Virus record (IMG/VR): IMGVR_UViG_2636415418_000003
Reading direction: 5' to 3' (one strand)
Source of the DNA: a virus
Lineage: Duplodnaviria; Heunggongvirae; Uroviricota; Caudoviricetes
DNA length: 12,783 bases
Shown here: piece by piece, positions 1,132 to 1,174 of the stretch
Position numbering within the stretch: position 1 is the stretch's first letter
Layout: each line of letters starts with the position of its first letter
Program-made: the position numbers and the translations under genes
Notes under the pieces: model-generated
Told to the model about the DNA's origin: nothing
Databases searched by the model: none
What the model saw: the letters and a program-made list of their open reading frames with translations, nothing else

Positions 1132-1174
1132 ATTCGTAATGCGAAGGTCGTAGGTTCGACTCCTATTATCGGCA
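1132..1174 (+). other. 3' fragment of a tRNA-Thr(CGU) gene (anticodon loop through discriminator), lacking the 5' half and the CCA end; putative att core of an integrative element
   Basis: Sequence attcgtaa-tgcga-aggtc-gtagg-ttcgact-cctat-tatcggc-a has tRNA geometry: anticodon loop with CGT, variable loop, T stem gtagg/cctat, T loop TTCGACT, 7-nt acceptor 3' strand and discriminator A. The matching 5' acceptor strand (gccgata) is absent upstream and the sequence continues ctct, not cca. Resemblance to enterobacterial thrW is from recall. Confidence 0.7.

What the first reader, a model, noticed from the sequence alone, without database searches (positions are those of the whole stretch)
1132..1174. 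Orphan 3' fragment of tRNA-Thr(CGU) marks an integration junction, but the flanks fit neither a simple attL nor attR
The 43-nt core runs from the anticodon loop to the discriminator, with non-tRNA sequence upstream and ctct instead of CCA downstream. A simple attR should be followed by the native CCA and downstream chromosome; a simple attL should carry the tRNA 5' half. Non-native sequence on both sides suggests a junction between tandemly integrated elements at a thrW-type hotspot, or a rearranged site.
Basis: partly seen in the sequence, partly recalled or inferred. Interest (0 to 1): 0.5.

Follow-up and report, generated by a model that had tools for sequence, protein, structure and literature searches.

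The report
Junction scar between two thrW-integrated elements

Summary
Confirmed. Window 1132-1175 is 44/44 identical to positions 31-74 of thrW, the tRNA-Thr(CGU) gene: anticodon loop through the discriminator plus the first C of CCA. TC then replaces CA.

- **Left flank (19-1131).** This is the right arm of an SfV/P22-att-type prophage ("A"). In E. coli strain 127 the same prophage is bounded about 40 kb upstream by proA, intact thrW and an integrase.
- **Right flank (1176 onward).** This is the left arm of a separate 13.5-kb island ("B"). In an E. coli draft contig (L011) and in Raoultella planticola, B abuts an intact thrW directly, with the same TCTC.
- **Far end of B.** In sibling contigs B ends with its own integrase and a second core copy of 36 nt, at the equivalent of window 14679-14714.
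- **The missing CA** belongs to B's attP, which matches thrW only over positions 41-74.

A and B occur independently and in other combinations. The site is empty in 948 of 5426 complete E. coli genomes.

The window is an IS-bounded draft contig, so it holds neither the intact tRNA nor the second core copy.

The tandem-array reading is supported. The phenomenon is well known (SfI/SfX at thrW; Islander tandem arrays), so interest is low. Island B looks like an undescribed satellite-like element: it carries a gpE-like capsid gene and a helicase but no portal or terminase gene. That is the only potentially novel item.

The parts
1..18 (.). Last 18 nt of an IS3 copy (…CGTGGGTAGGATCA), marking the left contig boundary.
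   Evidence: Sequence. In strains D3 and 127 an IS3 transposase gene ends immediately before the position that matches window 1. Genomes without that IS match only from window 19 (H12-H15).
19..1131 (+). Right (attR-side) arm of prophage A, an SfV/P22-att-type lambdoid prophage with a contractile tail. It contains the 4-fold beta-flower gene (365-796, minus strand) and the att-proximal arm (about 870-1131) that is shared among several thrW prophages.
   Evidence: 100% identity over window 1-1175 to E. coli D3, 127 and others, with the match always ending at 1175. Pfam Bflower hit, E=5e-27. Strain 127 shows proA-thrW-int … portal, sheath, baseplate, tail fibres … Bflower-core. Window 1121-1175 is identical to the attP of SfV, SfII and SfIV, and 1124-1175 to the attP of the P22 family.
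1132..1175 (+). Orphan thrW 3' fragment (thrW positions 31-74), a hybrid att core that serves as attR of prophage A and attL of island B. Its left boundary (position 31) is set by A's attP and its right boundary (position 74) by B's attP.
   Evidence: 44/44 identity. No tRNA is called. The same fragment followed by TCTCTAAG… sits behind other upstream elements in L012 and L013, and forms part of an intact thrW in L011 and L003.
1142..1175 (+). The 34-nt core proper of island B (thrW positions 41-74), the stretch repeated at B's far end.
   Evidence: The far-end copy in L010-L014 begins at thrW position 41 (aat|CGAAGGTCG…GGCACCA) at locus 14611-14646, which equals window-equivalent 14679-14714.
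1176..1978 (+). Left arm of island B: about 800 nt with no convincing ORF, conserved across B relatives. It contains the 13-nt repeat AATCAATAACTTA (1186-1198), which recurs in B's right arm.
   Evidence: 94% identity to the sequence directly after intact thrW in Raoultella planticola (L003), and 82% to the sequence after thrW in E. coli XYEH3934. Repeat positions. No Rfam family above noise.
1979..2680 (+). Cargo gene of island B encoding a DUF2971 protein, a PADLOC candidate defence family (PDC-S31).
   Evidence: Pfam PF11185, E=3e-12. PADLOC PDC-S31, E=1e-36. The corresponding segment is about 700 bp shorter in the Raoultella copy, so this is likely a variable cargo position.
3524..4090 (-). 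Small (188-aa) catalytic-domain-only tyrosine recombinase of island B. It is not the site-specifying integrase.
   Evidence: PF00589, E=6.5e-21. It is 91% identical to the homologue in a tRNA-Gly-inserted relative, whereas the large integrases of the two elements are only 34% identical.
6518..8002 (+). DEAD/ResIII-type P-loop helicase of island B, the presumed replication function.
   Evidence: PF00270 and PF04851. phrog_2467. 40% identical to the homologue in XYEH3934. Only 22-24% identical to hypothetical proteins of large virulent phages.
10069..11109 (+). Lambda gpE-family major capsid protein gene of island B. Small ORFs of unknown function lie just upstream (9373-9690 and 9677-10027).
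   Evidence: PF03864, E=1.3e-19. phrog_29. Nearest phage relatives are about 22% identical: major capsid proteins of roughly 145-155-kb Erwinia, Klebsiella, Raoultella and Pectobacterium phages, and weakly the phage phi92 protein gp124 in the PDB.
11479..12763 (+). 5' part of island B's 603-aa Q/K-rich, tape-measure-like gene, truncated here by an IS.
   Evidence: Full-length in L010-L014. Weak phrog_2854 tape-measure hit, E=5e-4. The window diverges from all sibling copies at 12764.
12764..12783 (.). First 20 nt (TGAAGTGGTTTACTGAATTT) of an IS3-family insertion sequence, marking the right contig boundary.
   Evidence: The same 20-mer lies at L002 7213, between a truncated integrase gene and an ISEc52 transposase gene.

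Best explanation
The 44-nt thrW fragment is a recombination scar. It is simultaneously the attR of a roughly 40-kb SfV/P22-att-type prophage (A, to the left) and the attL of a 13.5-kb integrase-bearing island (B, to the right). Both elements were inserted by tyrosine integrases into the 3' half of the single thrW gene downstream of proA, forming a tandem array: proA-thrW-A-[this fragment]-B-[36-nt core]-(a further island or the chromosome).

Each junction in such an array takes its left limit of tRNA identity from the attP of the element on its left, and its right limit from the attP of the element on its right. For A the left limit is position 31. For B the right limit is position 74, because B's attP carries TC where the tRNA has C75-A76. 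That accounts for both 'non-tRNA upstream' and 'ctct instead of CCA'.

Shown: the identity of both arms, their independent occurrence, B's own second core and integrase in sibling contigs, and empty and singly occupied sites.

Inferred:
- The source genome has the intact thrW to the left and B's integrase and core to the right, both beyond the IS-bounded contig.
- The order of events. I favour A entering the regenerated thrW of a B lysogen (about 60:40 over B entering A's attR).
- The site is still a substrate for excision of either element.

One consequence: when B is the tRNA-proximal element (L011, Raoultella), the regenerated thrW has no encoded CCA. It would then have to be matured by 3' trimming (RNase BN/Z type) and the CCA-adding enzyme.
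For: - **Fragment.** 44/44 identity to thrW, an orphan, unique in the window.
- **Left arm.** Window 1-1175 is 100% identical to E. coli D3, 127 and other strains, and every match stops at 1175. In strain 127 the same arm closes a prophage whose other end is proA-thrW(76 nt)-int, 40.1 kb away. Ten contexts of the identical Bflower gene were fetched, and the core was located in nine of them. There the arm is followed by a 46-nt core with CCA and then by at least six different sequences: native yagP'/paoD, P4-type-integrase islands, and others. 107 sequenced phages carry this core as attP; the listed matches, including SfV, SfII, SfIV and P22, stop at window 1175.
- **Right arm.** An exact search for core+TCTCT finds intact thrW + TCTCTAAGAAAATC… in Raoultella planticola ATCC 33531. 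The E. coli draft contig L011 has proA-thrW(74 nt)+TCTC-B.
- **Island B in other contexts.** Window 1130-12763 is 99.5-100% identical to B copies lying behind three other upstream elements.
- **B's far end.** In all five sibling loci: a 420-aa integrase on the minus strand (DUF6538 + Phage_integrase), then 113 bp, then a 36-nt core (thrW 41-76). After that comes either native-like sequence (L011) or a further island with a P4-type integrase and AlpA; in L010 that island extends to MobC and a relaxase.
- **A without B.** D3 shows A joined directly to that third island through a 46-nt core.
- **Empty site.** proA-thrW-CCA-TTAAAATCAAAG… is present in 948 of 5426 complete E. coli genomes.
Against: - The window contains neither the intact thrW nor B's integrase or second core, so the array in the source genome is inferred from sibling contigs.
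- The exact combination of this A-arm variant (…gaagTgg…) joined to B was not recovered in any fetched locus. The nearest loci carry other upstream arms or a C-for-T variant of the arm.
- No excised form of B (reconstructed attP) was found in viral or metagenome contigs, so B's current mobility is unproven. In this copy an IS interrupts one B gene.
- The order of integration cannot be read from the sequence.
Confidence: 0.9

Rival explanations
1. Secondary rearrangement: the A|B junction did not arise by direct integration. Instead, homologous or integrase-mediated recombination between two core copies of a longer array (for example A-X-B) deleted the intervening element.
For: Arrays at this site are at least three elements deep and carry 34-46-nt direct repeats. 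IS3, IS1 and IS2 copies litter these loci. The product would be indistinguishable from a directly formed junction.
Against: No trace of a third element is seen. Both arms reach the core at exactly the boundaries seen in singly integrated copies. The hypothesis adds a step without explaining anything more.
Confidence: 0.07
2. Simple attR of prophage A: the fragment is the displaced thrW 3' end, its CCA has mutated to CTC, and the sequence to the right is ordinary chromosome.
For: The left arm and core are those of prophage A's attR. Orphan cores do drift: L010 and L014 carry a C-to-A change.
Against: The right flank is not chromosome. It is a 13.5-kb unit with its own integrase and flanking core repeats, and it is present or absent independently of A. 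The native downstream sequence is TTAAAATCAAAG…yagP'. TCTCTAAG… also follows an intact thrW in two species.
Confidence: 0.01
3. The fragment is the attP of a free phage or circular element, so the window would be an unintegrated mobile genome.
For: A tRNA 3' fragment with non-tRNA sequence on both sides is what an attP looks like, and 107 phage genomes carry this core.
Against: The two flanks belong to different elements that occur separately. B's true attP partner arm (…ggttattggaat) lies at B's other end. The window is bounded by IS ends within E. coli chromosomal prophage context.
Confidence: 0.01
4. Assembly artefact: a draft assembler joined prophage A's end to island B across the repeated 44-nt core.
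For: The window is evidently a short IS-bounded draft contig. The genome probably holds at least three core copies.
Against: A 44-nt repeat is shorter than normal read lengths and final k-mers. Analogous junctions (other arm + 44 nt + B) occur in independent assemblies (L012, L013), and A|island junctions occur in closed genomes.
Confidence: 0.02

Closest known systems
Tandem SfI-SfX lysogens at tRNA-thrW of Shigella flexneri (PMC3306764)
   Same: Two elements are integrated head-to-tail at thrW downstream of proA, with an att copy between them. The later phage entered at the attL of the resident one. Window 1121-1175 is identical to the attP of the related phages SfV, SfII and SfIV.
   Different: Here the downstream partner is not a serotype-converting phage. 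It is a 13.5-kb island that uses a shorter core (34 nt, thrW 41-74), has its integrase at the tRNA-distal end, and has an attP without the terminal CA.
P22 / SfV / ES18 / HK542-type attP core (46-nt thrW 3' segment)
   Same: The left boundary is the same (thrW position 31, anticodon-loop class) and the arm bases just upstream are identical. Phage records annotate it as 'attP core' or 'tRNA-like fragment'.
   Different: Those attPs continue with CA and phage DNA on the integrase side. Here the identity stops at C74 because the right side comes from a different element.
Islander/TIGER tandem arrays of genomic islands at tDNAs (PMC4383910)
   Same: A regenerated tDNA plus displaced 3' fragments delimit each island. 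An array is called when each member has its own fragment and integrase. That pattern is seen in the sibling loci.
   Different: Nothing differs in principle. Arrays of three or more were rare in that survey (4 of 3919 islands), and this locus reaches at least three in sibling contigs.
ptwF, the orphan thrW fragment at the right end of cryptic prophage CP4-6 in E. coli K-12
   Same: It is an orphan thrW 3' fragment marking an element boundary at the same locus. Phage records cite it, and the same native flank (TTAAAATCAAAG…yagP'/paoD) appears.
   Different: ptwF is a simple attR followed by native chromosome and CCA. The window's fragment is internal to an array.
cfPICI, PICI and P4-like phage satellites (SatelliteFinder definitions, PMC10085698)
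   Same: Island B is small (13.5 kb), integrated at a tRNA gene, and carries an integrase, a replication-type helicase, a capsid gene and a defence-candidate cargo gene. No tail-fibre, lysis, portal or terminase genes are recognisable.
   Different: B lacks AlpA, a primase-replicase, TerS/TerL, portal, protease and head-tail adaptors (cfPICI has 11 core components). It also lacks P4's Sid, Psu, delta and alpha. Its integrase sits at the tRNA-distal end, and it has a second small recombinase.

Membership tests
Internal junction (attR/attL hybrid) of a tandem array at a tRNA gene | The fragment is identical to the 3' part of the target tRNA gene and is co-oriented with it. | tested here: met
   44/44 identity to thrW positions 31-74. 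Orientation matches thrW in the sibling loci L011, L007 and L015.
Internal junction (attR/attL hybrid) of a tandem array at a tRNA gene | The upstream flank is the terminal arm of an integrative element that elsewhere ends at the same core. | tested here: met
   Window 1-1175 is 100% identical to D3 and 127. Of ten fetched Bflower contexts, the nine in which the core was located all have this arm followed by the 46-nt core.
Internal junction (attR/attL hybrid) of a tandem array at a tRNA gene | The downstream flank is the terminal arm of a different element that elsewhere abuts the intact tRNA gene. | tested here: met
   L011 (E. coli) and L003 (Raoultella) have intact thrW + TCTCTAAG… followed by B.
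Internal junction (attR/attL hybrid) of a tandem array at a tRNA gene | Each array member has its own integrase and its own tDNA fragment (Islander criterion). | tested here: inconclusive
   Met in the sibling loci: int_B of 420 aa plus a 36-nt core for B, and a 372-aa integrase plus thrW for A in strain 127. Inside the window, neither large integrase nor the second fragment is present, because IS elements bound the contig.
Internal junction (attR/attL hybrid) of a tandem array at a tRNA gene | Empty and singly occupied versions of the site exist. | tested here: met
   Empty site in 948 of 5426 genomes. A alone in L019, L021 and L023. B alone in L011.
Simple attR | The fragment is followed by the native 3' end (CCA) and native downstream chromosome. 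| tested here: not met
   TC replaces CA, and the downstream sequence is island B rather than TTAAAATCAAAG…yagP'.
Simple attL | The tRNA 5' half is contiguous with the core. | tested here: not met
   Prophage arm lies upstream and no tRNA is called.
P22/SfV-type 46-nt thrW att core | Identity to thrW from position 31 through A76. | tested here: not met
   Positions 31-74 only. The last two bases are TC. The left boundary and the arm are of this type.
cfPICI (island B) | Eleven core components, including AlpA, primase-replicase, HNH, TerS, TerL, protease, capsid, and head-tail adaptor and connector. | tested here: not met
   Only an integrase and a capsid (PF03864) are recognisable. Pfam and PHROGs give no hits for the other components. 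Definition from PMC10085698.
Phage satellite in the functional sense (island B) | Helper-dependent induction, packaging and transfer. | not testable with these tools
   No excised attP was found in viral or metagenome contigs, and there is no capsid relative in IMG/VR. This needs experiments.

The most novel reading that the evidence does not exclude
Island B (window 1176 onward, about 13.5 kb in full) may belong to an undescribed, deeply divergent family of capsid-encoding, satellite-like integrative elements of Enterobacteriaceae.

The family's common plan is: a non-coding left arm, a cargo/defence slot, a small catalytic-only tyrosine recombinase, a DEAD-type helicase, small ORFs, a gpE-family capsid gene, a tape-measure-like protein, and an inward-facing integrase at the tRNA-distal end.

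Members sit at thrW or tRNA-Gly with swapped integrases. This variant's attP lacks the terminal CA. When it is the tRNA-proximal element it therefore turns the only tRNA-Thr(CGU) gene into a CCA-less gene, which would depend on the CCA-adding enzyme. To my knowledge all native E. coli tRNA genes encode their CCA end.
Probability: 0.3. Interest if true: 0.6.

Novelty: new member of a known kind. Interest (0 to 1): 0.25.

Why it matters
As a junction scar it matters little scientifically. It is a textbook example of how tRNA fragments delimit stacked mobile elements, and it shows that a careful reader can infer a tandem array from 50 bases.

It is useful in two practical ways:
- It gives a simple rule for parsing such arrays: the left limit of tRNA identity comes from the element on the left, and the right limit from the element on the right.
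- It flags island B, an apparently uncharacterised capsid-gene-bearing island that strips the encoded CCA from thrW when it is tRNA-proximal. If B proves to be a phage satellite, it would add a family with an unusual gene set to the known satellites of E. coli and its relatives.

Tried and rejected
- **tRNA and RNA family scans.** ARAGORN and Rfam at gathering thresholds found nothing in the window. A permissive Rfam scan of 1100-2000 returned one match far below its gathering score.
- **Second core copy.** None was found in the window at up to 3 mismatches or by repeat search.
- **Excised form of B.** A search for the reconstructed attP gave no hits in IMG/VR or JGI metagenome contigs.
- **B's capsid in IMG/VR.** No relative was found.
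- **Complete E. coli genomes.** Megablast of window 1176-3500 found no complete genome carrying this B variant's left arm. Only 81-84% relatives appeared with the sensitive mode.
- **PDB sequence searches.** Nothing useful for the helicase or the 603-aa protein.
- **Literature.** Searches for a described satellite or island family matching B, and for 'thrW' + 'satellite', found nothing relevant.
- **Phage phi458.** I considered it as a free-phage attP reference. In that record the core is followed by native chromosome-like sequence (L006), so it looks prophage-derived and I did not use it.
- **Order of integration.** I considered inferring it from the junction sequence, but both orders give the same product.

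Full report
**1. The observation**

Window 1132-1175 reads ATTCGTAATGCGAAGGTCGTAGGTTCGACTCCTATTATCGGCAC. I aligned it to the 76-nt tRNA-Thr(CGU) gene thrW from closed E. coli genomes (strain 127 and XYEH3934).
- It matches thrW positions 31-74 without a mismatch. That span covers the anticodon loop, the variable and T arms, the 3' acceptor strand, the discriminator A at 1174, and the first C of CCA at 1175.
- The next bases are TC-TC rather than CA.
- Base 1131 and everything before it is unrelated to the tRNA 5' half.
- ARAGORN and Rfam find no tRNA in the window.
- The 23-mer at the 3' end occurs once at up to 3 mismatches, against zero matches in 200 shuffles. There is no other copy in the window.

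**2. The left flank**

Megablast against 5426 complete E. coli genomes gives 100% identity for window 1-1175 in several strains (D3, 127, KMi012 and others). Every such match stops at 1175.

In strain 127 this arm closes a roughly 40.1-kb prophage. Its other end is proA, an intact 76-nt thrW and a 372-aa integrase. Between the two ends lie lambdoid regulation genes, a terminase, portal and HK97-type head, and a sheath, baseplate and tail fibres. The 4-fold beta-flower gene at window 365-796 (minus strand) is its last gene.

The last 52-55 bases (window 1121/1124-1175) are identical to the annotated attP of SfV, SfII and SfIV and of the P22 family. In total 107 phage records carry the core. In the listed records, including SfV, SfII, SfIV and P22, the match stops at window 1175, because they continue with CA.

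I fetched ten contexts that hold the identical Bflower protein and located the core in nine. In those nine the arm is followed by a 46-nt core including CCA, and then by at least six different neighbours. These include the native yagP'/paoD chromosome and several islands that begin with a P4-type integrase.

Window 19-1131 is therefore the right arm of an SfV/P22-att-type prophage, here called "A".

**3. The right flank**

An exact search of one genome per species for core+TCTCT found a single hit, in Raoultella planticola ATCC 33531. There an intact thrW (called by ARAGORN, anticodon CGT) runs straight into TCTCTAAGAAAATCAATAACTTAGG…, which is 94% identical to window 1176-1880.

I then looked up contigs that encode exactly the window's capsid protein. 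Five contexts came back, in which window 1130-12763 is 99.5-100% conserved:
- **L011:** proA, an intact thrW ending GGCAC|TCTC, then the same island.
- **L012:** an Avs2-carrying prophage end lies upstream.
- **L013:** another element, ending in a minus-strand integrase, lies upstream.
- **L010 and L014:** a further element that shares only the last ~260 bp of the arm lies upstream. Here the orphan core carries a C-to-A change.

In all five loci the island ("B") continues beyond the window's end in the same way:
- a 603-aa Q/K-rich gene;
- a 420-aa integrase on the minus strand (DUF6538 + Phage_integrase);
- 113 bp further on, a second thrW core copy, aat|CGAAGGTCG…GGCACCA (thrW 41-76), at the equivalent of window 14679-14714.

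After this core comes one of two things. In L011 it is native-like sequence. In the others it is a third island with a P4-type integrase and AlpA, which in L010 extends to MobC and a relaxase. That third island is the same one that follows prophage A directly in strain D3.

B is thus a discrete 13.5-kb integrative element whose att core is the 34 nt of thrW positions 41-74.

**4. Why CCA is missing**

At every junction examined, the left limit of tRNA identity is set by the element on the left:
- prophage A: position 31;
- island B: position 41;
- the XYEH3934 relative of B: position 58.

The right limit is set by whatever lies on the right:
- native chromosome, prophage A or the third island: position 76;
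- island B: position 74.

B's left arm reads C-TC-TCTAAGAAAATC. The 81%-related island in XYEH3934 reads C-CA-TCTAAGAAAATC. The 'ctct' is therefore a two-base difference in this B variant's attP, not a decayed CCA.

**5. Hotspot status**

A synthetic empty-site query (proA-thrW-CCA-TTAAAATCAAAG…yagP') is matched contiguously in 948 of 5426 complete genomes. In most others the two halves are separated, with up to six matching places per genome.

Tandem occupation of thrW has been shown experimentally for SfI and SfX, with the later phage entering at the attL of the earlier one (PMC3306764). The Islander work treats such arrays as a standard class (PMC4383910).

**6. Why the window lacks the confirming features**

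Window 1-18 is the end of an IS3 copy. That IS3 is present at the same place in D3 and 127. Window 12764-12783 is the first 20 nt of an IS3-family element, seen beside ISEc52 in L002, which interrupts B's 603-aa gene. The window is therefore an IS-bounded draft contig. The intact thrW and B's integrase and core must lie on other contigs.

**7. Mechanism and its status**

Shown:
- the two arms belong to separate elements;
- each element has a singly integrated form;
- the site has an empty form.

Inferred:
- Both elements entered by tyrosine-integrase recombination within the thrW 3' half.
- Order of events. I favour A entering the regenerated thrW of a B lysogen. Several different upstream elements sit in front of near-identical B copies, most of them followed by the third island, and there is the SfI/SfX precedent. 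B entering A's 46-nt attR gives the same product and is not excluded.
- The fragment remains usable for excision of either neighbour.

Rivals are either contradicted by the data above or add nothing. These are a simple attR with a mutated CCA, a free attP, an assembly mis-join, and a secondary deletion within a longer array.

**8. Island B in passing**

Recognisable B genes:
- a DUF2971 / PADLOC PDC-S31 candidate defence gene;
- a 188-aa catalytic-only tyrosine recombinase;
- a DEAD-type helicase;
- a gpE-family capsid gene (PF03864);
- a weakly tape-measure-like protein.

No portal, terminase, protease, AlpA or primase is recognisable, so B fails the SatelliteFinder definitions of cfPICI, PICI and P4-like elements.

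Syntenic relatives exist at thrW (XYEH3934) and at a tRNA-Gly gene (strain 2017-03-3CC). Between members, capsids are 23-40% identical and large integrases 34-54% identical. The small recombinase, by contrast, is 91% identical between the thrW and tRNA-Gly members.

The nearest phage capsids are about 22% identical and belong to roughly 145-155-kb virulent phages.

I found no description of this family in the searchable literature. That is weak evidence of novelty.

**9. Verdict**

The structure is an ordinary internal junction of a tandem array at a well-known hotspot. I rate interest as low. The only open and potentially novel threads are island B's nature and the CCA-less thrW it leaves in B-only lysogens.

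Noticed in passing
window 1-18 and 12764-12783: The window starts with the last 18 nt of IS3 and ends with the first 20 nt of another IS3-family element (the same 20-mer sits beside ISEc52 in L002). It is therefore an IS-bounded draft contig, and island B's 603-aa gene is interrupted at 12763/12764.
   Followed up: yes
window 1176-12763 (continues to about 14714 in L010-L014): Island B is a 13.5-kb integrative element with a gpE-like capsid gene, a DEAD helicase, a tape-measure-like protein, a small second recombinase and a tRNA-distal integrase. It has no recognisable portal, terminase or AlpA. Syntenic but deeply divergent relatives lie at thrW and at a tRNA-Gly gene. It does not fit the cfPICI, PICI or P4-like definitions.
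   Followed up: partly
L011 1034-1107; L003 5672-5745: Where island B is the tRNA-proximal element (an E. coli draft genome and Raoultella planticola ATCC 33531), the regenerated thrW ends GGCAC|TCTC and so has no encoded CCA. To my knowledge all native E. coli tRNA genes encode CCA.
   Followed up: partly
window 3524-4090 (-): The 188-aa catalytic-domain-only tyrosine recombinase is 91% identical between thrW-targeting and tRNA-Gly-targeting members of the B family, although their large integrases are only 34% identical. It therefore does not determine the integration site, and its role is unknown (possibly multimer resolution or an inversion).
   Followed up: partly
window 1979-2680: The DUF2971 protein matches PADLOC candidate defence family PDC-S31 (E=1e-36). 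It sits in what looks like a variable cargo slot next to attL; the Raoultella copy is about 700 bp shorter across this region.
   Followed up: partly
window 1186-1198 and L013 14579-14591: A 13-nt direct repeat, AATCAATAACTTA, would flank B's 34-nt core on both sides in the reconstructed attP. B's right arm also contains degenerate thrW-like pieces (GAGCGCATTCG, GGTTCG). These could be integrase-binding sites or relics of older att sites.
   Followed up: no
L010 and L014, about 1064-1107: The orphan core between the upstream element and B carries a C-to-A change in the acceptor-stem part (TATCGGAAC). This shows that internal array fragments drift once they are freed from tRNA function.
   Followed up: no
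window 869-1066: This segment of prophage A's arm is 92% identical to a segment near the int/att region of lambda-like phages and phage 21, which integrate elsewhere. It overlaps a 50-aa ORF (914-1066) of unknown function.
   Followed up: no
window 4100-6500: A low-GC stretch (32-38%) in island B has few ORFs and several palindromes or inverted repeats (for example 5510-5577, and 5324-5349 paired with 5905-5930), just upstream of the helicase gene. It is a candidate replication origin or regulatory region.
   Followed up: no
L005 16597-16680 (E. coli XYEH3934): The B relative in XYEH3934 has only a 19-nt direct repeat (thrW 58-76) at its far end. A separate TGCGAAGGTCGTAG piece lies 40 nt upstream. 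This suggests a different crossover region or a decayed older core.
   Followed up: no
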